This document shows, one piece after another, positions 10,101 through 55,129 of a stretch of DNA of 64,000 nt. The notes under the pieces were generated by a model, which was given only the letters and a program-made list of their open reading frames with translations, ran no database searches and was not told the origin of the DNA. This DNA comes from a virus (lineage: Duplodnaviria > Caudoviricetes): IMG/VR virus record IMGVR_UViG_3300046820_001270, positions 270,493 to 334,492 of that record, one strand, 5' to 3'. The translations under genes were made by a program, and so were the position numbers. Within the stretch, counting starts at the first letter, position 1; the number at the start of each line of letters is the position of its first letter.

Positions 10101-13029
10101 TGAACCCGAAAATGGTACATACGTAAGTTACGAAGATCAAATTTTTGAACTTGACCCGATATTTGATCCTGGAATTACTTTTGTAGTTACGGGACATACC
10201 GACGTAGGAATACACCCTTATTATGATGATATATTTTATAATATCGTAAATGGAGAAAATTATTTTGATTTTGTAACTGGAAATACTACCGATTATTATA
10301 ATAAAATAACAGGAGGAACATTAAATTTAAAAAATGATGTTTTAGCATATAGTGGAGGTACATTATATTATTGGACACAATATGTTGATGATAGTAAAGT
10401 AAACAATAAAAAGAATACATTTACATTATTACCATCTACAGGAGATAATCTTTTTAAAGGTAAAAAACAATCATTAACAAATGTTAATGAAAATCCATTT
10501 TCAAACAATTCGTTTGAAATAGAAGAACAAAATAATTTTAGAATAGTTTGGGACGATGAATTAATCAGTAGTAATTTTAGTGGGCAAACATTTGCATCAC
10601 CTATAGAACACACAACTACAATTTCGGGAAAATACGGAATTCAAAATATAACCGATAATTATAAAAAAGTTATGGATTTAATTGCTACATTTAATCCAAC
10701 AATTTTAGATGAATTTGAAAAATATTTTTTATTGTTTGCATCTGAAAAACTTAACTTAAGTGTTTCTGATAAACCTTTTAATGGAGTAGTATTAGATAAA
10801 TTTCAAGATTTATTAAAAGAAATAGTTACAGTACAAAAAGATGTAAAAAATTCTACATCTAACCAAATTTCTATTTTAAAAGAAAAACAAAAAACTAAAT
10901 TAGAAGATATTAGTAAATTAATTTTATCAAATGATAATTTGATAAAAATTACAATAGGTAATCCTAAAGAATTTGATCCACATACGTTAATTGGTTTTAT
11001 AGGTGTAGATAAAAAAAATACATTTAAATACAACACATATAAAGGTGAATTTGATGGATCTCAGAGTGATGAAAATGTTGATTTAATAAATCTATATTTA
11101 GGACCTGAACCCGAATACGGGGATTATCAGGATTTCTTTATAGATAATAACATAGAATTTAACGAGGAAAACGTACAAATTTTCAGACCATTAATTTATA
11201 TATATGCCGGTTATAAAAATAGTAGTTTTTATAACACAACACCAAACTTTAAACAATATCTTAATGAGTCTATCTTTACCAAATCGGGAGGAGTTGATGA
11301 AAGATTAAATACATTTTTACTTACATTAATACCTAAGTTTCAAAAAGAATTTAAAATTCAAGAAGACCCAACTAAAATTACATTTTTTGATGGATATAAT
11401 AATAAACCATTAAAAGTTGAATTGTATAATTTCTTTAAATCCATGAACGATAAATGGATTGCCGGTAATTCAATTGGTCAAAGATCGTTGTTAGAAGAAT
11501 TTTTATTTTTAGATAGGGCCAATAAAGATATTGGAAATGATTATTATTTTGATTTAACAAGGTTAACCAATATGGGAGACCCTAAAAATTCAAAACAAAG
11601 TTTATATGGTGCTTTATCAATTTTACTACAAGGAACGGGATTTGATATGAGGGCATTACCGGCTTATATTAATTTTTATGGAAATACTTTTTCTAAAAAT
11701 CCTAAATTAGTACCATCAAAAAGAATTGCACAAAATCTATTTGGAACATTTTTAGATGTCGATTATCAAGAGTCTCTACCAAAAATTGTAATTCAATATG
11801 TTGGTAAGAATTCGACAAGACCTGAGATGGAGAAAAAAGGTAAATTTAAATTTAGTGACGATAGTTTTAATGTTGGTAATGTTAATAATAATCCACTTAT
11901 GGTTACTTTACCTAAAGTATTTAAAACAGGCGATTTAACAAAGTCTAACAAAGTAGTTGCATTTGAAGTAAGTTTTGGTGACCAAAACCAAAGTATTTTT
12001 AAAGGAATACAATTAGATCAAGCTTCAATTAAAAATACAAGTGAATCTTTTTATGTATTAGAAAACTTAGCAAGATCCGAATCGGGTTCGTCATCACATA
12101 ATGTTGATATCGGTTTATATGATTATTATAGACAGGCCTCTTATACTTGTGATGTCACATGTATGGGAAATGTTATGATACAACCAACAATGTATTTTTA
12201 CCTTAAAAACGTACCAATGTTTAAGGGAACGTATTGGATTAGTGAGGTAGCACATTCAATTAAAAGTGGATCGATAACGACTACATTCAAAGGATCAAGA
12301 ATACCGTATACGGCTCTTCCTGATTTAAAAGATTCATTTATGTCAAGTTATCGTACATTATTTGATAAATTACAACAAAAGGCAGTTAATAGAGTTAATG
12401 GTGCGGATAAGGTTACAGAAACAAGTAAGACCATAACAAATCAAAACGGTGAAAAATTCACATTTGATATGGGAGATTTAAAAAAATCACCTTCTGGTGA
12501 AAAACTTGTCGAGGGAGATGCTTCATTTACACCTCAAGCGGGTATTCCATTTAACGGATATGCAGATTTTAGATATATTACTAAAGTCAAATATCCTAAT
12601 GAAAATAGTCTTTGGTTAAGAGCAATTGTGGCTAGAATGGGTGAGAAGAAATATCCAATAAAAGATGAAGTTGTCATGTCAGTAGTTTCATCAAATAGTA
12701 AAATCATAACAAGTCCTAAATTTACGTGGAAACAAGCGTCTGAATTTACAAACGATTATTATTTTTATGCAACAAAATTCTTATTTGATAAAGTACCCGC
12801 ATCAAAAGTTACAACGTTAACCTCAACGTTTTTTAATCCAGCAAATAATGTAACAATTATAGTTCCACCAAAATATGAATTAAATGATAAAACCACAACT
12901 CCTATTGAATTCTCAGGTCCAATTGATATAATAAGAGATGAGGAACCATATGGTATGGTATTATCTTCTAAGTTAATGTTAGACTTAGGTTTACAAGATG
13001 GTGATATTGTTTACTTCAATGTTGGATAA
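7114..13029 (+). CDS. Baseplate hub protein (gp27/VgrG-like) with large insertions
   Basis: N-terminal FGIDNITINIKG...INITFLDVRG and C-terminal CDVTCMGNVMIQPTMYFYLKNVPMFKGTYWISEVAHSI...TTTFKGSR are the typical hub-protein ends. Follows the LysM-like gene. Confidence 0.7.
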   Translation: MENNKITNTEDIHVKVDQNNLIYIDPNSTIDSQGNISPRNIKAENLVMYVNLEADIIPRSILAADNTTNTLTSIAKGTLNFLKNNDGGDYDTSWTNSFLNSEEKKNGSGTLTGEFFQSDKSGQTFGIDNITINIKGFNSIPTINITFLDVRGKTLFESPENSPYKAFFHIPWPIFYLTVKGFYGKAIRYRLHMVKFTSKFNESNGNFEVNTSFVGSTYAYLSDIPLQGILNAPYLFPYESSKVTETNTGTNREKETVKKSTKGYEILKTVYNEYKLKGLIKEDFPVKTLKEVMTISKTLDTLLEKQIFDQVVDMRIFAGLKQFQEDIDKFEEAVIGWGKLNLESEPEPSLTQSTTDPNNPKLFFLVKSNPRTDRSKGIDGPDEDGTFEHLLKFYGDKIRESQLLSDVIQNQKIKQNPLLNKTGSNFSTKSLGISKVGNMELYIDDKNHPNKFIGIAIQKLLDDVREIRTKFEQQREKLQRQVEIKMNEIVRDKTKGFGFEPTIRNIFAVILANAEVLIRLMKDVHKKAFDQAETRKMVVSRFSKESMGDSIYPWPELKATVKGKENTIIYPGDPDWQAYLGSENAQRWPEVAFLETYIGVTTNKVDPLAEKEASINKLSNTIQNDSDIKKIKKISTANEVVNILPYVNKSPDSFIYELYERSFHYSVIESFNKTATWEKLADLEFGNIQESVEDENGLRKLLIQNIKDKTTLISQLEKLSPFEKYSYYKDSLPTTDYLKSFYEQSFIIEQYVSSNSVDDKKLYQFLDEELQNFTPETYRKNIYPYSSNVYLNYISTGVTSITDSLLNCRNFLSVDTTQGLVSGEVNPLFWLKNGVTSNLFSKKFTLTNTKVNILNTPFFHRQLFSDFNTIGSSSGKYAGSAYLLLNSLAFTDLDEIKIGTTKTDSKPYTFLTSSLFKEIGSSQYVPYHLILKWGSIYHRHKKFIKEGVDIIGDVYDGNSLVKEGAVKTGSTETLIGFQTNKLDGRTFFDNGNDLVFEPENGTYVSYEDQIFELDPIFDPGITFVVTGHTDVGIHPYYDDIFYNIVNGENYFDFVTGNTTDYYNKITGGTLNLKNDVLAYSGGTLYYWTQYVDDSKVNNKKNTFTLLPSTGDNLFKGKKQSLTNVNENPFSNNSFEIEEQNNFRIVWDDELISSNFSGQTFASPIEHTTTISGKYGIQNITDNYKKVMDLIATFNPTILDEFEKYFLLFASEKLNLSVSDKPFNGVVLDKFQDLLKEIVTVQKDVKNSTSNQISILKEKQKTKLEDISKLILSNDNLIKITIGNPKEFDPHTLIGFIGVDKKNTFKYNTYKGEFDGSQSDENVDLINLYLGPEPEYGDYQDFFIDNNIEFNEENVQIFRPLIYIYAGYKNSSFYNTTPNFKQYLNESIFTKSGGVDERLNTFLLTLIPKFQKEFKIQEDPTKITFFDGYNNKPLKVELYNFFKSMNDKWIAGNSIGQRSLLEEFLFLDRANKDIGNDYYFDLTRLTNMGDPKNSKQSLYGALSILLQGTGFDMRALPAYINFYGNTFSKNPKLVPSKRIAQNLFGTFLDVDYQESLPKIVIQYVGKNSTRPEMEKKGKFKFSDDSFNVGNVNNNPLMVTLPKVFKTGDLTKSNKVVAFEVSFGDQNQSIFKGIQLDQASIKNTSESFYVLENLARSESGSSSHNVDIGLYDYYRQASYTCDVTCMGNVMIQPTMYFYLKNVPMFKGTYWISEVAHSIKSGSITTTFKGSRIPYTALPDLKDSFMSSYRTLFDKLQQKAVNRVNGADKVTETSKTITNQNGEKFTFDMGDLKKSPSGEKLVEGDASFTPQAGIPFNGYADFRYITKVKYPNENSLWLRAIVARMGEKKYPIKDEVVMSVVSSNSKIITSPKFTWKQASEFTNDYYFYATKFLFDKVPASKVTTLTSTFFNPANNVTIIVPPKYELNDKTTTPIEFSGPIDIIRDEEPYGMVLSSKLMLDLGLQDGDIVYFNVG

Positions 13030-14334: not shown

Positions 14335-14350
14335 AATAAAAAAATAAGAA

Positions 14351-14584
14351 ATGGCAATAACAAACGCATCGACAAGACGTACAACTTCGGTTAATGCATT
14401 TACAGGATTAACATATGTTGATACAATAATAGGTACTGCAGCAAGTAACGGACTTTTTTCTGTTGTAGTGGAAGGTAATTATATTGATGATACAATCACA
14501 GGATCAATAGTAAGTGCTGGATATGTAGTAAAAAAGAAATTTGACGATATGGGAACTTACCCAAGATATACCATAAATTGGTAA
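14351..14584 (+). CDS. Hypothetical protein
   Basis: 77 aa ORF with an A-rich leader, followed by a terminator. Confidence 0.65.
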   Translation: MAITNASTRRTTSVNAFTGLTYVDTIIGTAASNGLFSVVVEGNYIDDTITGSIVSAGYVVKKKFDDMGTYPRYTINW

Positions 14585-14609
14585 TCTAAAAATACTTTAA
14601 AAATAATTG

Positions 14610-14638
14610 AACCCAGATTTTATAGTCTGGGTTTTTTT
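14610..14638 (+). terminator. Rho-independent terminator closing the first late block
   Basis: aacccaga-ttttatag-tctgggtt followed by a T-run. Confidence 0.8.
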
Positions 14639-14684
14639 ATGTATATTTTAGTATAAATGATTTTATAATTTAAATTTTAATTCT

Positions 14685-15527
14685 ATGAGTACATTTGATG
14701 CAGTACTTGCACAGTACGAGAAAAACAAAAACGCCACAGGTGGCAACAACAACAAGATATCCTCTGAGGATAGATTAAAACGTTATTTCACAACCGTATT
14801 ACAAAAAGGTTCTAAGGGTGAAGAAAGACGTATCCGTATTTTACCTACAAAAGATGGTTCTTCACCATTCGTAGAGGTAAAGTTTCACGAAGTTCAAGTG
14901 GACGGAAAATGGGTAAAATTATATGACCCAGCACAAGAAGGAAAACGTTCTCCATTAAATGAGGTTTACGAAGGATTGATGATGAGTGGTGTGGATTCTG
15001 ACAAAGAATTGGCACGTAACTATCGTTCTCGTAAGTTTTATATCGTTAAAGTGATCGATCGTGATCATGAAGCGGATGGAGTTAAATTTTGGAGATTTAA
15101 ACATAATCACAAAGGTGATGGTGTTATTGATAAAATCTTCCCAATCTTCCGTAACAAAGGAGATGTTACCAATCCTGAAAATGGTCGTGATTTAATCTTG
15201 TCTTTAGCCTTAACAAAGGCGGGTACAGGTAAAGAGTACACAGTTATCAATTCAGTATTAAACGATGATCCAAGTCCACTACATACTGACGCAGACGTCG
15301 CAAAAACGTGGTTAGATGATGAGTTAACTTGGTCTGATGTTTACTCTAAGAAAGGTGAAGATTATTTAGAAATGGTTGCAAGAGGTGAAGTTCCACGTTG
15401 GGACACAGCAAGTAGCAAATGGGTTTCTAATTTGACAACAGAAGAAACTATCGGAGCGGTGAAGACTTCTACTCCTGTTGTTGATCCACAAGACGATGCA
15501 GATGTAGATGGTGATTTACCATTCTAA
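14685..15527 (+). CDS. ssb: Single-stranded DNA-binding protein (T4 gp32-like)
   Basis: RIRILPTKDGSSPFVEVKFH, YIVKVIDRD and an acidic C-terminus DDADVDGDLPF. Adjacent to the recombinase. Confidence 0.8.
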   Translation: MSTFDAVLAQYEKNKNATGGNNNKISSEDRLKRYFTTVLQKGSKGEERRIRILPTKDGSSPFVEVKFHEVQVDGKWVKLYDPAQEGKRSPLNEVYEGLMMSGVDSDKELARNYRSRKFYIVKVIDRDHEADGVKFWRFKHNHKGDGVIDKIFPIFRNKGDVTNPENGRDLILSLALTKAGTGKEYTVINSVLNDDPSPLHTDADVAKTWLDDELTWSDVYSKKGEDYLEMVARGEVPRWDTASSKWVSNLTTEETIGAVKTSTPVVDPQDDADVDGDLPF

Positions 15528-15538
15528 TTATTAACGGA

Positions 15539-15570
15539 GGGGTGGAGATAACGTCAGAAACCCCATTTTT
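15539..15570 (+). terminator. Possible weak terminator or attenuator between ssb and recA
   Basis: ggggt...acccc 5-bp stem with a 16-nt loop followed by attttt. Weak. Confidence 0.35.
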
Positions 15571-15581
15571 AAAAACAAATT

Positions 15582-16562
15582 ATGGCAGGTATTAAAAAAA
15601 CAGACTTTTCGGCAATTAAGAAGAAATTCTCTAAAGAAGCCGAGTACAAACCAGATCGTTTCTTCGATTTGGGTAATGCCTTCTTGGATGCATGTGGTAT
15701 TCCGGGTCCTGCAATGGGTCACATCAATATGTTATTAGGACATAGCGATACGGGTAAAACAACCGCACTTGTAAAGTCGGCGGTAGATGCTCAAAAGAAA
15801 GGTGTTGTTCCTGTGTTTATTATTACTGAACAAAAATGGAGTTGGGATCATGCTGAATTAATGGGTTTTGATAGAAACGGAGATTATCTTTTCAATAGTG
15901 ATTTTGAATATATCGAACAAATTACAGAATATATCAATGAACTATTAGACGCACAAGAGAAAGGAGATTTACCTCACGATTTATTAATCTTATGGGATTC
16001 AGTAGGTTCAGTTCCATGTAAAATGACTTACGATGGTAAAGGTGGTAAACAACACAATGCGTCGGTTTTAGCTGACAAAATTGGAATGGGTATCAACCAA
16101 CGTATTTCAGGTTCAAGAAGAACAGATAAACCTTATACGAACTCTTTAATCATTGTTAACCAACCTTGGGTAGAATTACCTGACAATCCTTTCGGACAAC
16201 CGAAAATTAAAGCAAAAGGTGGAGAAGCAATTTGGTTAAACTCAAGTATCGTATTCTTATTTGGTAATCAAAAAGGAGCGGGAACAACGAAAATCTCTAT
16301 CACAAAAGATAAGAGAAAAGTAAAAATTGCAACAAGAACAAAAATCTCTATCATGAAAAACCACATCAATGGTTTGGGATATGAAGACGGACGTATCTTG
16401 GTTACATCACACGGATTTATGCCAGGTAGAGAAGATTCTGAAGAGAAGAAATCTATCGAGGATTATAAAAAAGAAAGTGGTGATTACATCAGTAAGATGT
16501 TAGGTGTTAATGTTACAGACATCACAGACGTAGAAGTTGTAACAGAAGAAAGTGATCTTTAA
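15582..16562 (+). CDS. recA: RecA/UvsX-like recombinase
   Basis: Walker A GHSDTGKT, Walker B ILWDSVGS, and IIVNQ...KAKGGEAIWLNSS. Confidence 0.9.
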   Translation: MAGIKKTDFSAIKKKFSKEAEYKPDRFFDLGNAFLDACGIPGPAMGHINMLLGHSDTGKTTALVKSAVDAQKKGVVPVFIITEQKWSWDHAELMGFDRNGDYLFNSDFEYIEQITEYINELLDAQEKGDLPHDLLILWDSVGSVPCKMTYDGKGGKQHNASVLADKIGMGINQRISGSRRTDKPYTNSLIIVNQPWVELPDNPFGQPKIKAKGGEAIWLNSSIVFLFGNQKGAGTTKISITKDKRKVKIATRTKISIMKNHINGLGYEDGRILVTSHGFMPGREDSEEKKSIEDYKKESGDYISKMLGVNVTDITDVEVVTEESDL

Positions 16563-16571
16563 ATTTAACAA

Positions 16572-17606
16572 ATGTCGGTTTTACTTGTTGATGGGGATAA
16601 TCTATTAACTATTGGTTATTACGGAGCGAAGAATGTGTTTTACAAGGGAACTCACATCGGTGGTATCTACCACTTTCTAAACACCCTAAGAAGATCTTTT
16701 GAGGAATACCAATTAGACAAGATTGTTGTTTTTTGGGACGGACTTGAGGGTTCACAAACCAGAAGAAAGATATATTCTCACTACAAGGAAAATAGAAGAC
16801 AAAGAGTTAGAACAGAAGAAGATTTACAATCTTACTTATATCAGAGAGATAGAATTAAACAATATCTTGAAGAACTATATGTAAGACAAGGGGAATTTGA
16901 GTATTGTGAGACTGATGACAACATCGCTTACTATACTCAAAACTCACCCGAAGAAAGAAAAATTATTTATTCATCAGACGGGGATTTAACTCAACTCGTT
17001 TCAGAAAACACACAAGTTTACAATCCTTCACACAGGAAATTATATTCACAGAACGATATAATCATTTACGATCACGAAGAAATCCTCATAGAGAATGTTC
17101 GTTTGGTTAAAATGATATGTGGAGACTCATCAGATAACATTGCGGGAATAAGAGGAATGGGACTTAAAAGATTATTGTCTTTGATCCCTGAACTAAGAAA
17201 TCAACCAATTACAGTTGATCAGGTTAAAGATAGATGTAACATATTATTTGAACAAGACAAACACAATAAGTTAATTGCTAATTTATTGACAGGTGTTACA
17301 AAACACGGAGTACTTGGTGAGGAATTCTTCGACGTAAACCAAAGGATAGTAAGTTTGGACGAACCGTTTTTAACAACTGAAGCAAAAGAGACAATAGACC
17401 TACTGATTAGTGAACCATTAGACCAAGAGGGTAGATCATATAAAAACGCGATGAAGATGATGCAAGAAGACGGACTCTTCAACGTACTACCAAAATCGGA
17501 AGATGCTTGGATAAATTTTTTAAATCCTTTTCTAAGATTAACAAGAAAAGAAAAAAATATAAACAACAATATAAAAAAAACAATTAAAGTAAGACCTTAT
17601 GAGTAG
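16572..17606 (+). CDS. 5'-3' exonuclease / flap endonuclease (T4 RNase H or Pol I N-terminal-like)
   Basis: LLVDGDNL, VVFWDG, YKENR, ETDDNIA, SSDGDLTQL, and the helix-3-turn-helix GDSSDNIAGIRGMG. Confidence 0.9.
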   Translation: MSVLLVDGDNLLTIGYYGAKNVFYKGTHIGGIYHFLNTLRRSFEEYQLDKIVVFWDGLEGSQTRRKIYSHYKENRRQRVRTEEDLQSYLYQRDRIKQYLEELYVRQGEFEYCETDDNIAYYTQNSPEERKIIYSSDGDLTQLVSENTQVYNPSHRKLYSQNDIIIYDHEEILIENVRLVKMICGDSSDNIAGIRGMGLKRLLSLIPELRNQPITVDQVKDRCNILFEQDKHNKLIANLLTGVTKHGVLGEEFFDVNQRIVSLDEPFLTTEAKETIDLLISEPLDQEGRSYKNAMKMMQEDGLFNVLPKSEDAWINFLNPFLRLTRKEKNINNNIKKTIKVRPYE

Positions 17607-18057
17607 AGATTACCAAAACCAAGACAACATAACAAAATTTGAATTTTTGTTGTCATTAGAAGGACATATCGTATGTCAAAGATTTTTTAACGTTAGAGAT
17701 CATGTTGATCAGGCTAGACGTTCTATGGATCTTCACTATTATGTAAAAAATATTTGTGAGGATTTTATGGAAGATTTGAAAATAAAAAGTTCCAACTACC
17801 TATGTGAGAATCAAAACTATATTCTTCATTCGGAGGTTGTGGACGAGTCGGCAATTTCAGAAAAAGAGTATTTTTTGTTGGAAATTAAGTTAGGTGAGGA
17901 TGTATTTATTCAAAGACAATTCCCCGCATATCTTTACCATCCAAAGGCAAGATACACGGTGGATATCCGTCCAAGATTGAAGATAATTTTGTCAGATTTA
18001 ACAGACATTTTGTCTTCGGAAGAATTGGAAACAAGTTATTTAGGATACGAATTATAA
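17599..18057 (+). CDS. Hypothetical protein in the replication operon
   Basis: 152 aa, overlapping the exonuclease stop. No motif recognised. Confidence 0.65.
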   Translation: MSRDYQNQDNITKFEFLLSLEGHIVCQRFFNVRDHVDQARRSMDLHYYVKNICEDFMEDLKIKSSNYLCENQNYILHSEVVDESAISEKEYFLLEIKLGEDVFIQRQFPAYLYHPKARYTVDIRPRLKIILSDLTDILSSEELETSYLGYEL

Positions 18058-18082
18058 GAAAAAACAATATATAATAAACACT

Positions 18083-19459
18083 ATGGAAGAAAGGAATTTT
18101 GGGTATTTGGGATTTTCGTTTCAACAGTCCCTTATCAAAGCAATTATTGAAGATAAGAAGTACGGAGAAACAATTATTGATGTATTAGAGAGTAAGTTTT
18201 TTGATAATAACTCATTTAGATTTATTATGGAAAACACAAAGGAGTTGTATAAGAATTACAACAAAATCCCTGATTACAATACATTGGCACAGAAAATCAT
18301 GGCAGAAGGTGGGAACAAAGATTCATCTAAAATTCACGTAGATACATTAGAAGCAATTAAAAATAATGAGTCTCAAATTGAATATGTAAAAGACACAGCA
18401 CTTAATTTCTGTAAACAACAAAACTTGAAAAGAGAGTTGAAAAGTGTACAGAGCATTATTGAAAGTGGTGAGTTTGAGGCTTACAATAAGATTGAGGAAA
18501 TCATTCAAAAAGCATTACAAGTTGGTATTTCCAATGATGAAGCAACGGATGTGTTCCATGATATCGACGGAGCATTAGAAAAGGACTTTAGACACCCATT
18601 ACCGACAGGTATTGTGGGAATCGACAACTTACTTAAGGGTGGGTTAGGAATCGGAGAATTGGGGGTTGTATTAGCTCCTACTGGTACTGGTAAGACTACC
18701 TTACTTACTAAGTTTGCTAACACCGCATATAACTTAGGTTATAACGTTGTACAAATTTTCTTTGAGGACAATCCAGGTAATATTAAAAGAAAACACTATA
18801 CGATTTGGACTGAAATTGCTCCTGACTCTCAACCTGAATTTAAGGATGAAGTTAAAGCTAAAGTAGAAGAGGCTCAAGCTAAATCTAAAGGTAGTTTGAA
18901 GTTATTAAAATTGGCAAGTGATAATGTTACTGTTTCTGAAATTAAAAATAAAATCAGAAAGATGAACTCAGAGGGTGGAAAAAAAGTAGACCTATTGGTA
19001 TTAGATTATGTTGATTGTGTATCAACTGATAAATCAACTAATGGTGAAGAATGGAAAGGTGAAGGTTCTGTAATGAGAAGTTTAGAGTCTATGACATCTG
19101 AATTTCAAATGGCAATATGGACCGCAACACAAGGTAATCGTGAATCAATTTCATCAGAAGTTGTAACAGGAGACCAAATGGGAGGTTCAATTAAGAAAGC
19201 ACAAATTGCTCACGTTATATTATCTATTGGTAAAACATTAGAACAAAAAGAACATAATTTGGCAACACTTACGTTATTAAAATCACGTATAGGTAGAGAT
19301 GGTGTTGTTTTCCAAAACTGTAAATTCAATAACGAGTTCCTCCTTATTGATACAGAGTCTCAAAATACTTTATTGGGACATGAAGAGCAAAAGGTTCAAA
19401 TAAACGCTAACAGAGCCGCCGAGGCGTTTAAGAGGAGACAACAAGTGGCGAGTAAGTAA
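18083..19459 (+). CDS. dnaB: Replicative DNA helicase (DnaB/gp41-like)
   Basis: Walker A APTGTGKT, Walker B LVLDYVD, WTATQGNR, and LLKSRIG. Confidence 0.9.
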   Translation: MEERNFGYLGFSFQQSLIKAIIEDKKYGETIIDVLESKFFDNNSFRFIMENTKELYKNYNKIPDYNTLAQKIMAEGGNKDSSKIHVDTLEAIKNNESQIEYVKDTALNFCKQQNLKRELKSVQSIIESGEFEAYNKIEEIIQKALQVGISNDEATDVFHDIDGALEKDFRHPLPTGIVGIDNLLKGGLGIGELGVVLAPTGTGKTTLLTKFANTAYNLGYNVVQIFFEDNPGNIKRKHYTIWTEIAPDSQPEFKDEVKAKVEEAQAKSKGSLKLLKLASDNVTVSEIKNKIRKMNSEGGKKVDLLVLDYVDCVSTDKSTNGEEWKGEGSVMRSLESMTSEFQMAIWTATQGNRESISSEVVTGDQMGGSIKKAQIAHVILSIGKTLEQKEHNLATLTLLKSRIGRDGVVFQNCKFNNEFLLIDTESQNTLLGHEEQKVQINANRAAEAFKRRQQVASK

Positions 19460-19490
19460 TTAATAAACACAAAAAATAAAGAGAACACAA

Positions 19491-21752
19491 ATGCAGAAAG
19501 GTAAAAAATTTCTGAGTGACTTGAAGTTACACTCAGATTATTTTAAATGGAAAGAAGATGAACAAAGGTACGAAACATGGGAAGACGCATGTGAGAACAT
19601 AATTGACGGACACAGAAAAAAATATGTGGATTATGATGAGGCAATTGAACCATATTTACAATCTGCCGTTGAAAGTATGAAAGATCAAGCTGTATTAGCT
19701 TCACAAAGAAACTTACAATACAGACATGAACAAATCATGAAACATAACACGAGAATGTTTAACTGTACATCAGGACACATTGCTCGTAATAGAGTATTCC
19801 AAGAGATTTTCTATTTGGCATTATCTGGTTGTGGATTCGGAGGTGGATTATTAATCCCTTTCGTAAACAATTTAAGTAGAATCCAAAAGAGAACTTTAGG
19901 AACTAAAACTTTTTATATTGAAGATTCAATTGAAGGTTGGGCAAATGCGTTAGGTGTATTATTATCATCTTATTTTGTTGATGAGCAACCATTTCCTGAA
20001 TATGCTGGATATGAAGTTAAATTAGATTATTCTTTAATTCGTGAGAAAGGTGCGTTCATTAGTGGTGGTTTTAAAGCACCTGGTCCTGAAGGTTTAAAAC
20101 AATCTTTAGAAAAAATTGAAACGTTAATTGAAAAGTGGATTACAACAGAAGGAGATAAAATTCGTCCTATCTTGGCGTTTGACATTATTTGTCATTCGGC
20201 AGATGCTGTATTATCAGGTGGAGTTAGACGTTCAGCGTTAAACATGATTGTAGATCCTAATGATGATGAGATGATCCACGCTAAGACTGGTAATTGGAGA
20301 ATGGAAAACCCACAAAGAGGTAGAAGTAATAACTCAGTTTTATTATTAAGAAGTGAAGTTAAAAAAGAACAATTTAATTACTTAGTACAATTAAACGATG
20401 GAGCAAATGATATTGGTTTTGTATTTGCCAATAGCTGGTTTGATATGTTTAACCCATGTTTTGAGATTTTAAAAATCCCTGTATTAGATACAATTGATTT
20501 TGGTAAAATCAAATATGATGAAGTTGATCAATATGTTAAAGACAACAAATCTAAGTTTGGTATTCAAGGTTGTAACTTAACTGAAATCAACGCAGAGAAG
20601 GCAACAACAAAAGAAAAGTTTTTAAAGGCTTGTAAAGACGCATCTTTCTTAGGTACATTACAAGCAGGTTATACTAACTTCCCTTATTTAGGTGAAACAA
20701 GTAAGGCAATCTTCGAAAGAGAGGCTTTATTAGGTGTTAGTATTACCGGTTGGATGAATAACCCTAAATTATTTAATGCCGAATTATTAGAAGAAGGTGC
20801 ACAAGTTGTAAAAGATGCTAATAAAGAATTAGCCGCAGTAATTGGTATTAATCAAGCAGCAAGAACTACATGTGTAAAACCATCAGGTAATGCCTCAGTT
20901 GTATTAGGAACTGCGTCAGGTATTCATCCTGAACACTCTGAAAAGTATTTCCGTATTATGCAATTGAACAAAGAAAGTAATACAGCAAAATGGTTAGAAG
21001 AAAATATGGCATTCTTATTAGAGGAAAGTGTATGGTCTTCAACTAAGTCAGATTACGTTGTATTTGTTCCTGTTGAAAATCCAAAAGTTGGTTTATTCAA
21101 AAAAGATATGAAAGGTATTAAACACCTTGAATTAATTAAATTGGTTCAACAACATTGGGTAAATGCGGGTACCAATCCTGAATTATGTGCTTACATGCCT
21201 GTTAATCATAATACGTCTTGTACGGTTATTATTGATGACAAAGATGCAATTGTTGACTACATTTGGGAACAAAGAGATTTCTTCACCGCAGTTAGTTTCA
21301 TGTCAGACTACGGAGACAAAGACTTCAATCAAGCACCGTTTACATCTGTATTAAATTTGGATGAAATTGTGGAAACATATGGTAAAGGTTCAATTTTAGC
21401 TTCAGGGTTAATTATTGATGGATTACATTATTTCCAAAATAACCTATGGTTAGCAACAGATACTTTATTAGACGATTCAATCCAAGTTACCGGAACAAGA
21501 GAACAAGTATTATTAAAGAAATATTGGTTGTCAAGAGCGAAGAAATTTGCAAAGAATTATTTCAAGGGTGATTTGAAGAGGATGGTTTATTGTTTAAAAG
21601 ACGTACACTTATTCTATAAGTGGGAAACCATCACTCGTCAATTTAAAGAAGTTGATTTTGGTACCATTTTAGATAAACCACAATACAAGAACATTTCCGA
21701 TTATGCGGCACAGGCTTGTAGTGGAGCACAATGTGATGTAACAAGTATCTAA
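19491..21752 (+). CDS. nrdJ: Class II (adenosylcobalamin-dependent) monomeric ribonucleotide reductase
   Basis: FNCTSG, GGVRRSAL, NPCFEI (thiyl radical Cys), GCNLTEIN, TTCVKPSGNAS and a C-terminal redox pair CSGAQC. No R2 or activase gene nearby. Confidence 0.85.
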   Translation: MQKGKKFLSDLKLHSDYFKWKEDEQRYETWEDACENIIDGHRKKYVDYDEAIEPYLQSAVESMKDQAVLASQRNLQYRHEQIMKHNTRMFNCTSGHIARNRVFQEIFYLALSGCGFGGGLLIPFVNNLSRIQKRTLGTKTFYIEDSIEGWANALGVLLSSYFVDEQPFPEYAGYEVKLDYSLIREKGAFISGGFKAPGPEGLKQSLEKIETLIEKWITTEGDKIRPILAFDIICHSADAVLSGGVRRSALNMIVDPNDDEMIHAKTGNWRMENPQRGRSNNSVLLLRSEVKKEQFNYLVQLNDGANDIGFVFANSWFDMFNPCFEILKIPVLDTIDFGKIKYDEVDQYVKDNKSKFGIQGCNLTEINAEKATTKEKFLKACKDASFLGTLQAGYTNFPYLGETSKAIFEREALLGVSITGWMNNPKLFNAELLEEGAQVVKDANKELAAVIGINQAARTTCVKPSGNASVVLGTASGIHPEHSEKYFRIMQLNKESNTAKWLEENMAFLLEESVWSSTKSDYVVFVPVENPKVGLFKKDMKGIKHLELIKLVQQHWVNAGTNPELCAYMPVNHNTSCTVIIDDKDAIVDYIWEQRDFFTAVSFMSDYGDKDFNQAPFTSVLNLDEIVETYGKGSILASGLIIDGLHYFQNNLWLATDTLLDDSIQVTGTREQVLLKKYWLSRAKKFAKNYFKGDLKRMVYCLKDVHLFYKWETITRQFKEVDFGTILDKPQYKNISDYAAQACSGAQCDVTSI

Positions 21753-49880: not shown

Positions 49881-50489
49881 ATGAGTATAGATATTAATTT
49901 CAAAAACAAACCAAAGATTTTAGGGTTGGATATTTCCACTAAAACTATTGGATTTGCATTGTTTGATATGTCAGGTTCTAAACTATTGGAACTAACACAT
50001 TTTTCACCAAAAATTAAACCACAACCCGAAGATAAGATCGAAGAACTTATTAAAAAGGCGGACGCGTTTAAGAAACATTTAGAAGGTTATAAAGATATGG
50101 GGATAGTTCGTGTAATTATCGAAGAACCATTGTTACAGTCAAATAATATCTACACAATTGGAACATTATTACGTTATAACACATTGATACTCAAGAACTG
50201 TTATGATGTGTTAGGTGTGTTACCAACATTTATATCAACATATAATTCAAGAAAATTTGCGTTCCCTGATTTGGTTGGACCAAACGATAAGGGACGTAAC
50301 GTTTTGTTTGGTGGTTATCCAAAAGACATTGATAAGAAACATGTTATTTGGGAACACGTTAACAATGTATGTCCCGATATCAATTGGTTATATGGTAAAA
50401 CGGGTAATCTTAAAAAAGAAAATTATGATATGGCGGATGCCGCTTGTTGTGTAATAGGATATGTTAATATGAACAAACAAACATCTTAA
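49881..50489 (+). CDS. ruvC: RuvC-like Holliday junction resolvase
   Basis: ILGLDISTKTIGFALF, VIIEEP and DMADAACC form the RNase H-fold acidic set. Confidence 0.85.
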   Translation: MSIDINFKNKPKILGLDISTKTIGFALFDMSGSKLLELTHFSPKIKPQPEDKIEELIKKADAFKKHLEGYKDMGIVRVIIEEPLLQSNNIYTIGTLLRYNTLILKNCYDVLGVLPTFISTYNSRKFAFPDLVGPNDKGRNVLFGGYPKDIDKKHVIWEHVNNVCPDINWLYGKTGNLKKENYDMADAACCVIGYVNMNKQTS

Positions 50490-50493
50490 AATA

Positions 50494-50503
50494 TCCGGCA
50501 ACT
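50494..50503 (+). promoter_or_regulatory. TCCGGCAACT motif, copy 1 (copy 2 at 54539-54548)
   Basis: An identical 10-mer just after a stop codon in two intergenic regions, 36-38 nt upstream of a TATATT element. Confidence 0.4.
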
Positions 50504-50544
50504 AAAGTTTTACTTTACGAGTTGTAAAAGATATATTTATATTA

Positions 50545-50614
50545 GGACGGGACTTGTAGAAATACAAGTTTGGTTGGAGGGAGTCGAGGTGGTGTTCGGC
50601 TCCCATTTTTTTTT
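50545..50614 (+). ncRNA. Candidate small two-hairpin non-coding RNA
   Basis: GC-rich island in AT-rich DNA, 3 nt after TATTTATA (50534-50541). Hairpin acttgta-GAAA-tacaagt (50552-50569), hairpin gggagtcga-N8-tcggctccc (50579-50604), then T9. Confidence 0.55.
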
Positions 50615-50641
50615 ATCATACTTTTTTATTATATTATAATC

Positions 50642-51586
50642 ATGAACACCGAAAAAGAAGTAGATTACTCCGCGGTATTTGATATTTTAGAAGATATATT
50701 TGGTGACTATAAGAATCATAATGATTATAGGTATCAAGTATCCTTTGACTGCCCTGTGTGTTCACATGAAATTAAAGGTTTAGATCAAGGAGATGGGAAG
50801 GGTAATCTTGAAGTCAATTACAAATACGGTGTTTATAAATGTTGGGTATGTGCTGAGACACATAATACTCATGGATCAATCTATAGGTTGATTAAAAAAT
50901 TTGGTAATCCAAGGCAACTAAAGAAATATCTTTTATTGAAACCTGAAGATGACGAAGAGATTGCTAATAGAACTTACAAACCTGTAAAATTACCAAAAGA
51001 ATTTATACCATTTAAAGATGCTAGTATGGGTTTAAAGATGACCCCACAATACAAGCAGGCATACAATTACATTAAAAAAAGAAACATCACTGATTTGATG
51101 TTGCAGATTTATAATATTGGATTTTGTTATAGTGGACCATATGAGAGTAGAATTATAATTCCATCATATGATGAAAATAAAAGATTAACGTATTTCATTG
51201 CTCGTTCTTATTTACAGAAGACAAAAAGAAAATATATGAACCCCGAAGCACAAAAGGAGATCATTATTTTCAATGAGCATTTGATTAATTGGGATGAACC
51301 AATATACATTGTGGAAGGCGCGTTCGATAGTATTTTCATTCCAAATGCAATTCCAATGTTGGGAAAGTTTATGAGTGAACATTTATTTATGAAACTCTAC
51401 AATAATGCAAAAAAAATAGTTATAGTATTAGATCCTGACGCATGGGAAGACCAACAACGATTATATCATAGATTAAATTGTGGAAAACTAATGGGGAAAG
51501 TGTGGAGTATTAAATTAGAAGGGGATAAAGATATTGCCGATTTACAAGGGAACTTAAGTGAATATAAAATGAAACAAATAGATTAG
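50642..51586 (+). CDS. dnaG: DNA primase (zinc finger plus TOPRIM)
   Basis: DCPVC...YKCWVC zinc-binding domain, IVEGAFD, VLDPDA and KDIAD. The real start is most likely ATG 50642, not TTG 50570. Confidence 0.9.
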   Translation: MNTEKEVDYSAVFDILEDIFGDYKNHNDYRYQVSFDCPVCSHEIKGLDQGDGKGNLEVNYKYGVYKCWVCAETHNTHGSIYRLIKKFGNPRQLKKYLLLKPEDDEEIANRTYKPVKLPKEFIPFKDASMGLKMTPQYKQAYNYIKKRNITDLMLQIYNIGFCYSGPYESRIIIPSYDENKRLTYFIARSYLQKTKRKYMNPEAQKEIIIFNEHLINWDEPIYIVEGAFDSIFIPNAIPMLGKFMSEHLFMKLYNNAKKIVIVLDPDAWEDQQRLYHRLNCGKLMGKVWSIKLEGDKDIADLQGNLSEYKMKQID

Positions 51587-54535: not shown

Positions 54536-54604
54536 ATTTCCGGCAACTTACTTTTTTTTACAAAATATTTTATCTATATTTTAATAATATAAATGATAAT
54601 ATAA

Positions 54605-55129
54605 ATGGCAAAAGTTTACAACGCCGGTGGATTCGATGATACACCATCGAGACTGGCAACAATCAAATTCCTAAAAGAAGTATTCAATTTAAATTTTGAA
54701 TTAGGTACTCGATACGGTATTGATACGGTATGTATTGATGATCCGACTTGGGGCGCTGAAGTTGAACAATCTAAATCATGGTCAGGTGATTTTTTCTCAT
54801 CACAAAATAAAGGACTCAATAATAAATCTGGTTTAGGATTTATGACAGTTAATATTCCTTGGTGGAGAAAGGCAAAGTATTGGGCACAAGATAATCCAGG
54901 TAAAGATAAGAACATGTATGTGAGAATGAATAAAGACGCCTCACAAGTGATCGTTATTGAAGCGCAGGCATTTCATAATCCTGAAATGTGTTTAGAATCA
55001 CATTTTAAAACAGGTTGGATTACAACTGGTGAAGTTGAGGAGTGGAGAAGTTTTAGAAGAGAACATGTTAGAGTTTTTAATTTAATAAACGGAGTTTACG
55101 TAGAAGATAAAATTGAAGTATTATGTTAG
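54605..55129 (+). CDS. Hypothetical protein, possibly PD-(D/E)XK fold
   Basis: 174 aa. YGIDTVCID...AEVEQ loosely resembles a D...E-x-E nuclease motif. It has its own promoter-like region. Confidence 0.55.
   Translation: MAKVYNAGGFDDTPSRLATIKFLKEVFNLNFELGTRYGIDTVCIDDPTWGAEVEQSKSWSGDFFSSQNKGLNNKSGLGFMTVNIPWWRKAKYWAQDNPGKDKNMYVRMNKDASQVIVIEAQAFHNPEMCLESHFKTGWITTGEVEEWRSFRREHVRVFNLINGVYVEDKIEVLC

What the first reader, a model, noticed from the sequence alone, without database searches (positions are those of the whole stretch)
50534..50614. Candidate late-transcribed small structured RNA between ruvC and primase
Seen: a GC-rich island of about 60 nt begins with GG 3 nt after a TATTTATA motif. 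It forms a 7-bp hairpin capped by a GAAA (GNRA) tetraloop, extendable with G-U pairs. A second 9-bp hairpin (one G-U) follows, then T9. There is no credible ORF. A plain terminator would not need an upstream promoter motif or a first GNRA hairpin. Inference: this is a self-contained ~65-nt phage RNA. Possible roles include a packaging RNA, a decoy for host defence, or an antitoxin mimic. A DNA hairpin/origin next to primase is an alternative. I do not recognise it as a tRNA or any known family.
Basis: partly seen in the sequence, partly recalled or inferred. Interest (0 to 1): 0.8.

Follow-up and report, generated by a model that had tools for sequence, protein, structure and literature searches.

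The report
Conserved small RNA gene in giant phages
Between the RuvC-like and primase genes of an uncultured giant lake phage lies a 66-base two-hairpin RNA element, kept in about 90 related phage contigs with many compensating base changes; it is most likely a small RNA gene of a family not in Rfam 15, and its job is unknown.

Summary

- **Conservation:** the element lies directly after the RuvC-like gene in every copy examined, across about 90 contigs and 44 distinct sequences. It is single-copy in each of four searched phage records (145-336 kb).
- **Structure:** 97% of cells are paired and 15 of 19 pairs show compensatory changes. Frequent G-U pairs mean the + strand is the one that folds.
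- **More than a terminator:** hairpin 2's hexaloop GUGGUG is nearly invariant (AUGGUG in the most divergent copy), as is the irregular base of hairpin 1 (GAC/GUU, a purine mismatch, tandem G-U). None of 65 other terminator-like hairpins in a 335-kb relative has this loop.
- **Own promoter:** a TATATTTAT box is as conserved as the RNA core and sits 4-7 nt before the fold.
- **Timing is not settled:** the promoter also keeps a -33-like ATTTTAC and a CCGGCAAC box at a fixed 29 nt. The phage's 53 late-type promoters have neither feature.
- **Excluded:** any Rfam family, tRNA, ORF, switchable attenuator or cellular copy.

Best reading (0.5): a stand-alone RNA of about 66 nt that works through its invariant loop, and whose terminator also ends the upstream operon. 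Function is unknown and no transcript data exist. Other first-stage readers flagged the same element in three related genomes.

The parts
49881..50489 (+). RuvC-like gene (202 aa). It has no promoter motif of its own, so it probably ends the operon that starts at the TATTTATA before 47652.
   Evidence: phrog_159, E 2e-6. Intergenic sequences. The element follows this gene in every copy examined.
50495..50502 (+). CCGGCAAC box, exactly 29 nt before the TATATTT box. Probably a distal promoter or activator site.
   Evidence: Conserved. The spacing is 29 nt in all 23 sequences that carry the exact motif. The same pairing occurs at only one other intergenic place in the 335-kb relative G001; one further match there is judged chance.
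50508..50513 (+). -33/-35-like TTTTAC, 18 nt before the TATATT box.
   Evidence: High conservation in 44 sequences and absent from 53 late promoters. Also picked up by the sigma-70-type scan.
50532..50541 (+). Promoter box TATATTTATA. It contains a host-type -7 box (TATATTTA) overlapping the late-type octamer TATTTATA (50534-50541).
   Evidence: Conserved as strongly as the RNA core. The octamer ends 4-7 nt before the fold in nearly all copies.
50546..50575 (+). Hairpin 1. Basal helix GAC/GUU, a G/G (or G/A) mismatch, tandem G-U pairs, a 7-bp covarying stem and a GAAA loop. The predicted RNA 5' end is at 50544-50547.
   Evidence: Fold; covariation. The apex varies in length and loop, while the base is nearly invariant.
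50576..50578 (+). Single-stranded linker GGA (GG(U)A in relatives).
   Evidence: Alignment.
50579..50604 (+). Hairpin 2. A 10-bp GC-rich stem in which all 9 modelled pairs covary, with the hexaloop GUGGUG (50589-50594), invariant in 43 of 44 sequences.
   Evidence: It is the only GTGGTG-loop terminator among 66 candidates in G001.
50605..50614 (+). A followed by T9: the U-tract of an intrinsic terminator and the 3' end of the RNA.
   Evidence: Terminator scan. The T-run is conserved.
50622..50637 (+). Conserved TTTTTT-N2-TATATTAT, 4 nt before the primase ATG. Probably the primase's own promoter, giving a near-leaderless mRNA.
   Evidence: Conservation profile. The same box-to-ATG spacing of 3-7 nt is common in G001.
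50642..51586 (+). DnaG-type primase gene, the first gene of a replication and recombination block.
   Evidence: phrog_47, E 5e-40; PF08275. Downstream genes.

Best explanation
This is a dedicated small-RNA gene.

**Proposed mechanism**
- A promoter (-33-like TTTTAC, -7/-10 box TATATTTA overlapping a late-type TATTTATA, plus a distal CCGGCAAC box) starts transcription at about 50544-50547. That is the first base of the fold.
- Transcription ends in the U-tract at about 50608-50614, giving a compact RNA of about 66 nt made of two hairpins.
- Hairpin 2 with the U-tract is a strong intrinsic terminator. It also stops transcripts arriving from the upstream tail-fibre/RuvC-like operon, which insulates that operon from the primase operon. 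The primase operon has its own promoter.
- The released RNA acts in trans. Its recognition surface is the near-invariant GUGGUG hexaloop together with the irregular, G-U-rich base of hairpin 1. It most likely binds a protein or makes a loop contact.

**Shown versus inferred**
- Shown: the fold, its conservation and strandedness, the single syntenic copy, the conserved promoter-like boxes, and the terminator features.
- Inferred: promoter activity, the RNA ends, trans action, and the partner.
For: **Conservation and covariation**
- The element is present between the RuvC-like and primase genes in 73 of 80 primase-anchored loci, with primase identity from 97% down to 62%. A pattern scan added 18 further contigs.
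- On 44 distinct sequences, 97.4% of cells are paired and 15 of 19 pairs have changes on both sides. The covariation score is 0.733 against at most 0.234 for slid partners, and 0 of 500 shuffles reach it.
- A sequence-only MAFFT alignment already gave 13 of 18 pairs with compensatory changes.
- All 44 sequences fold on their own into the same two hairpins.
- G-U pairs are frequent, so only the + strand can fold this way.

**Beyond a terminator**
- The loop GUGGUG and the motifs GAC, GGG, UUU and GUUGG are nearly invariant, while more than 20 different stem sequences occur.
- In G001, none of the 65 other terminator-like hairpins has this loop.

**Promoter**
- The TATATTTAT box is as conserved as the RNA core. 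Its octamer ends 4-7 nt before the fold.
- In G001, 48 of 78 TATTTATA sites lie within 40 nt before an ORF start, most often 4 nt before. The same geometry puts the RNA start at about 50546.
- A transcription start site plus an intrinsic terminator is the accepted signature of intergenic sRNAs in Bacteroidota (PMC7366714).

**Separate from primase**
- The primase keeps its own conserved box 4-7 nt before its ATG.
- Where an extra gene of about 1.3 kb is inserted (L085), the element stays next to the RuvC-like gene.
Against: - No transcript evidence exists for a discrete 66-nt RNA.
- The only RNA-library contig that touches the element (run X23, 50336-50578, from a relative) runs from inside the RuvC-like gene into hairpin 1. 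So the element may also, or only, be the 3' end of that mRNA, or the contig may derive from DNA.
- No target was found. There is no conserved complementary site near phage gene starts. The two near-complete relatives encode no RRM or RegA-type RNA-binding protein, though the RegA search also failed in all control genomes and so shows little.
- The AU-rich box could instead be an RNA processing site.
Confidence: 0.5

Rival explanations
1. It is only the 3'-end module of the upstream operon. Two tandem hairpins end and stabilise the tail-fibre/RuvC-like mRNA, and any short RNA arises by processing. The conserved AU-rich box would then be a cleavage site or incidental, not a promoter.
For: - The RuvC-like gene has no promoter or terminator of its own, and the element follows its stop codon by 56 nt.
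- The element stays with that gene when the primase side is disrupted (L085).
- One RNA-library contig bridges the 3' end of the gene and hairpin 1 (weak).
- Hairpin 1's apex GUAGAAAUAC is the common cap of other terminators in this phage.
Against: - Another late/early block boundary in the window (about 14335-14684) makes do with a single plain hairpin.
- A stability element does not explain a near-invariant hexaloop and an invariant helix base over stems that change freely.
- It also does not explain a box matching the phage's promoter motifs, conserved as strongly as the RNA and held 4-7 nt from the fold, with -33-like and distal boxes at fixed spacing.
Confidence: 0.2
2. It is a cis-acting leader or attenuator for the primase and recombination operon. 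Transcripts from the conserved promoter stop at hairpin 2 unless a phage or host factor binds the GU-rich linker and loop (HutP- or TRAP-like), or modifies RNA polymerase (nut- or put-like), to allow read-through.
For: - The order is promoter, then a 60-nt structured RNA, then a strong terminator, then the operon.
- The conserved segments are two GU-rich sites (GGUUGG and GGUGGUG) that flank the 5' arm of the terminator.
- Hairpin 1 often carries a GNRA loop (GAAA, GCAA or GUAA), as lambda boxB does.
Against: - There is no alternative antiterminator fold. Blocking the 3' arm costs 14.6-21.3 kcal/mol, and in RNA truncated before that arm hairpin 1 persists in 43 of 44 sequences.
- The terminator arms swap G-rich and C-rich sides among relatives.
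- The primase has its own conserved promoter-like box 4-7 nt before its ATG.
- The hairpin 1 loop is not conserved: UUAAAA and longer forms occur.
Confidence: 0.17
3. It is a DNA-level signal. Single-stranded + strand hairpins would serve as a primosome-assembly or origin site beside the primase gene, or the transcript would form an R-loop primer.
For: - It lies next to the primase and at the head of the replication and recombination block.
- The non-template strand is G-rich and is followed by an AT-rich stretch.
- Covariation cannot tell RNA from + strand single-stranded DNA.
Against: - The conserved T8-9 run directly after a GC-rich stem is the classic terminator layout, and promoter-like boxes are conserved upstream.
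- There are no iterons or repeats.
- GC skew follows gene direction and does not turn here.
Confidence: 0.06

Closest known systems
Lambda OOP RNA and P22 Sar RNA (short phage RNAs with a dedicated promoter and an intrinsic terminator; from my own knowledge)
   Same: An RNA of about 65-80 nt, with its own promoter and a built-in terminator. It sits at a boundary of regulatory and replication genes.
   Different: OOP and Sar are antisense to a neighbouring gene. Here every gene is on the same strand, and no complementary target was found. There is no sequence or Rfam relation.
HK022 put RNA (a cis-acting two-hairpin RNA of about 70 nt that makes RNA polymerase resist terminators; from my own knowledge)
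   Same: Two adjacent hairpins directly downstream of a promoter, of similar size.
   Different: put is not followed by its own U-tract. Here the second hairpin is itself a strong terminator, and its loop is the conserved part. No action on polymerase was tested.
Canonical intergenic sRNAs of Bacteroidota such as GibS (PMC7366714)
   Same: Defined by a transcription start with a -7 TAnnTTTG-type box and an intrinsic terminator. They lie in intergenic regions.
   Different: This one is phage-encoded and much more compact, with almost no single-stranded seed. No cellular copy was found.
Ordinary intrinsic terminators of the same phage
   Same: A GC-rich stem and a U-tract. Hairpin 1 shares the GUAGAAAUAC cap seen in several of them.
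   Different: Only this one has a near-invariant GUGGUG loop, a conserved upstream irregular hairpin and a conserved promoter box.

Membership tests
Any Rfam 15 family | Covariance-model score at or above the family's gathering threshold | tested here: not met
   No match in the whole window at gathering thresholds. In 50440-50700 the best score is 15.7 bits against a threshold of 60, and all E-values are about 1 or higher.
tRNA / tmRNA | Cloverleaf or tmRNA fold detected by ARAGORN | tested here: not met
   0 genes in the window.
Intrinsic (Rho-independent) terminator | A GC-rich stem, a loop of 3-8 nt, then a U-tract within 2 nt | tested here: met
   10 pairs (6 G-C), a 6-nt loop, then A and T9. 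The T-run is conserved. Hairpin 2 meets this test; the whole element holds more than a terminator.
Stand-alone sRNA gene (promoter plus terminator) | A conserved promoter placed to start at the 5' edge of the structure | tested here: met
   The TATATTTAT box is conserved like the RNA core. The late-register octamer within it ends 4-7 nt before the fold. -33-like and distal boxes sit at fixed spacing.
Stand-alone sRNA gene (promoter plus terminator) | A discrete transcript with a primary 5' end | not testable with these tools
   Only assembled metatranscriptome contigs of relatives were available. They cannot show RNA ends.
Riboswitch / classical attenuator | Mutually exclusive terminator and antiterminator folds | tested here: not met
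   No competing fold: blocking the 3' arm costs 14.6-21.3 kcal/mol, and hairpin 1 persists in 43 of 44 truncated RNAs. The two-hairpin fold is the minimum-energy structure in 44 of 44 sequences.
T4-type late transcription unit | A promoter consisting of the late octamer alone, with no upstream elements | tested here: inconclusive
   A late-like octamer (TATTTATA, TATTTATT or TATTTAAT) is present in most copies. Unlike the 53 late-type promoters of G001, though, this promoter also conserves TA two bases upstream, ATTTTAC at about -33, and CCGGCAAC.
Antisense phage RNA (OOP, Sar, c4 type) | Complementarity to a nearby or conserved phage mRNA site | tested here: not met
   There is no gene on the opposite strand. 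No conserved complement of the loop lies near ORF starts in a 335-kb relative.

The most novel reading that the evidence does not exclude
The RNA is a dedicated ligand. Its near-invariant GUGGUG loop and G-U-rich helix base would capture one specific protein or RNA end during infection. Candidates are RNA polymerase or a sigma factor, a host defence nuclease, or the ...CACCA 3' end of tRNAs, to which UGGUG is complementary. That would be an RNA-based takeover or counter-defence device in giant phages that probably infect Bacteroidota (host per earlier notes), a group in which I know of no described phage sRNA function.
Probability: 0.12. Interest if true: 0.75.

Novelty: new member of a known kind. 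Interest (0 to 1): 0.5.

Why it matters
- I know of no phage-encoded small RNA described for Bacteroidota phages or for uncultured giant phages.
- This candidate has unusually clean comparative support. It also offers a very small, well-defined recognition surface (a six-base loop and an irregular helix base) that can be mutated and used as bait.
- It can be added to RNA family libraries now, so that the many lake metagenome contigs carrying it are annotated.
- Its promoter is unusual. Host-type boxes, an overlapping late octamer and a rare CCGGCAAC box are shared with one other promoter, which drives variable cargo genes. That gives a handle on how these phages time transcription.

Tried and rejected
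**Known families and coding**
- Rfam at gathering and at permissive thresholds: nothing. ARAGORN: nothing.
- Coding reading: rejected. Element lengths are not in multiples of three, and stems change by compensating substitutions.
- Switch or antiterminator fold: rejected.

**Relatives elsewhere**
- GenBank phages searched by DNA (1.9 kb) and by the RuvC-like protein: no match, so no cultured relative was found.
- A scan of 185,579 cellular genomes with the signature pattern gave 19 hits. All are chance, scoring under 20 bits against at least 47 bits for true copies.
- Extra copies in four phage records (two near-complete, two partial): none.

**Sequence-level ideas**
- Chi-like or strand-biased GTGGTG: the bias (31 against 6) matches the general G excess of the coding strand, so it is not informative.
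- Base-pairing targets of the loop near gene starts, or in hairpin loops, of the 335-kb relative: only chance-level hits.
- GC skew as an origin marker: it follows gene direction only. Iterons: none.
- I considered resemblances of GGUUGGA to the 16S 3' end, and of AGUUGGUAG to a tRNA D-loop. Both were dropped as short and out of context.

**Possible partners and expression**
- Phage-encoded RRM proteins: none in two near-complete relatives. RegA-type proteins: none found, but that search also hit no control genome, so it is uninformative.
- Expression: no RNA run holds the stretch well. Three metatranscriptome runs hold 5-6% of its words, as contigs of relatives about 90% alike. These cannot show RNA ends or levels.
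- Literature search for the promoter motif or for jumbo-phage sRNAs found nothing relevant.

Full report
**Setting**

The window is part of an AT-rich (about 30% GC) giant phage genome, with every gene on the + strand. Earlier notes of this scan describe it as a 334-kb uncultured freshwater phage with a T4-type capsid and a Bacteroidota host. I did not test the host. The lack of Shine-Dalgarno sequences and the TAnnTTT-type promoter boxes seen here do fit Bacteroidota (PMC7366714).

Blocks of structural genes and replication genes alternate along the window:
- Fibre-like giants lie at 77-13029.
- SSB, a UvsX-like recombinase, a DnaB-like helicase and ribonucleotide reductase lie at 14685-21752.
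- Baseplate and fibre genes lie at 21950-49841.
- The RuvC-like gene (49881-50489, phrog_159, E 2e-6) comes next.
- After the 152-nt gap under study come the primase (50642-51586, phrog_47, E 5e-40), an exonuclease, SbcD, two DNA methylases, SbcC, ClpP and a sigma factor.

- Hairpin 1 is longer than described. Below the 7-bp stem with its GAAA loop come two G-U pairs, a G/G mismatch and a basal GAC/GUU helix (50546-50575).
- Hairpin 2 (50579-50604) has ten pairs and the loop GUGGUG. A and T9 follow.
- The fold is far more stable than shuffled sequence (z = -6.0).

**It is conserved and it covaries**

- I anchored on the primase protein and fetched 80 related loci from IMG/VR. The element is present in L001-L073, where primase identity runs from 97% to 62%. 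It is absent from L074-L080 (51-54% identity), where the RuvC-like gene and the primase gene almost abut.
- A signature-pattern scan added 18 more contigs. In all 18, the element sits directly after the RuvC-like gene.
- In L085 an extra stretch of about 1.3 kb separates the element from the primase, and the element stays with the RuvC-like gene.
- It is single-copy in each of four phage records of 145-336 kb.
- It is absent from cellular genomes as far as a strict pattern plus the covariance model can tell.
- On 44 distinct sequences aligned to model R1:
  - 97.4% of cells pair.
  - 15 of 19 pairs show changes on both sides.
  - All nine pairs of hairpin 2 covary.
  - The covariation score is 0.733, against at most 0.234 when partners are slid. 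No shuffle of 500 reaches it.
- That alignment was fitted to the model, so two independent checks matter. The plain MAFFT alignment gave 13 of 18 compensated pairs. Each of the 44 sequences folds on its own into the same two hairpins.
- G-U pairs are common, so the + strand is the folding strand.

**What is constrained**

- The stems change freely. Hairpin 2 has more than 20 different stems, and its G-rich and C-rich arms even swap sides.
- The apex of hairpin 1 varies in length and loop (GAAA, GCAA, GUAA, UUAAAA, and a longer stem in L085).
- The nearly invariant parts are the hexaloop GUGGUG (AUGGUG in the most divergent copy, L067), the helix base GAC..GGG / UUU-R-GUU, the linker GG(U)A and the U-tract.
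- I made a census of 66 terminator-like hairpins in the 335-kb relative G001. None of the others has this loop, although several share the GUAGAAAUAC cap of hairpin 1.
- A plain terminator therefore does not account for the element.

**Promoter**

- The most conserved block outside the RNA is TATATTTAT. Read in the late-promoter register, the octamer inside it ends 4-7 nt before the fold in nearly all sequences.
- TATTTATA is a real start-associated motif in this phage group. In G001, 48 of 78 + strand copies lie within 40 nt before an ORF ATG, most often 4 nt before. For its reverse complement the figure is 4 of 29.
- That spacing implies near-leaderless mRNAs that start about five bases after the motif. 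The same rule puts the RNA's first base at about 50546, the first base of the basal helix.
- The promoter is not a typical late one. Across the 44 sequences it also conserves:
  - the TA two bases before the octamer, which gives TATATTTA and matches the Bacteroidota -7 box TAnnTTTG except for the last base;
  - ATTTTAC at about -33;
  - a CCGGCAAC box exactly 29 nt upstream.
- The 53 late-type promoters of G001 show no conservation outside the octamer.
- I therefore read it as a host-sigma-type promoter with an overlapping late octamer. The time of expression remains open.

**Rivals**

- *Attenuator for the primase operon.* This is weakened by three points. No competing fold exists. The terminator arms flip between G-rich and C-rich sides. 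The primase has its own conserved box 4-7 nt before its ATG. Factor-dependent antitermination through the GU-rich linker and loop is not excluded.
- *A pure 3'-end module of the RuvC-like gene's operon.* Synteny supports it, and so does one RNA-library contig of a relative spanning 50336-50578. That evidence is weak: contigs show no RNA ends, and DNA may be present in the library. This rival explains neither the invariant loop nor the promoter boxes.
- *A DNA-level origin.* This has only position in its favour. There are no iterons and no turn in GC skew.

**Function**

I found no base-pairing target and no phage-encoded RRM protein. A RegA search also found nothing, but it failed in all control genomes too. 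The mature RNA would have almost no single-stranded sequence apart from the hexaloop and a 3-4-nt linker. I therefore favour recognition by a protein, or a loop contact, over seed pairing. This step is inference.

**Verdict**

- A real, conserved, structured RNA element: probability about 0.97.
- A stand-alone RNA of about 66 nt that also terminates the upstream operon: about 0.5.
- It belongs to no Rfam family, and my literature searches found no description of it.
- It is a new member of a known kind, the phage small RNA gene, and its role is unknown.
- Other first-stage readers flagged the same element in three related genomes. None of those findings had been followed up.

Noticed in passing
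window 54539-54582, and 50495-50541: A bipartite signal, TCCGGCAAC then 27-29 nt then TATATTT, occurs at only two intergenic places in the 335-kb relative: before the RNA, and before ORF 54605-55129. At the second site the promoter is conserved among relatives, but the gene behind it differs between them. L167 has two such promoters in tandem. It looks like a conserved promoter driving a variable cargo slot.
   Followed up: partly
window-wide; G001 (L199-L215): TATTTATA sits most often just 4 nt before the ATG of structural genes (48 of 78 + strand copies lie within 40 nt before an ORF start). TATATTT-type boxes likewise sit 3-7 nt before several non-structural genes. Most mRNAs of this phage would then be leaderless or nearly so, which is rare in Bacteroides itself (about 3.7% of 5' UTRs are under 10 nt, PMC7366714).
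   Followed up: partly
G001 (L199-L215), e.g. 31240, 33934, 37299 on the - strand: Many intrinsic terminators of the relative share an almost identical hairpin, CCCTCGTAGAAATACGGGGG, with a GAAA tetraloop. The same GUAGAAAUAC cap tops hairpin 1 of the RNA. This suggests a reused terminator cassette.
   Followed up: no
L085:12188-13490: In one divergent relative, about 1.3 kb holding an extra gene is inserted between the RNA element and the primase gene. The insert sits behind the same conserved post-terminator promoter-like sequence.
   Followed up: no
L074-L080, upstream of position 3001: The most distant primase relatives (51-54% identity) lack the RNA, the terminator and the CCGGCAAC box. 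Their RuvC-like and primase genes are about 40 nt apart, with a conserved ATACATTTATC just before the primase ATG. The element of about 110 nt is therefore a gain (or loss) specific to one clade.
   Followed up: partly
window 49881-50489: The RuvC-like protein is much better conserved than the primase next to it (about 90% against about 75% identity in the same contigs). It has only a weak family match (phrog_159, E 2e-6), no Pfam hit, and no PDB sequence hit below E 0.1. Its assignment as a Holliday junction resolvase deserves a structural check.
   Followed up: partly
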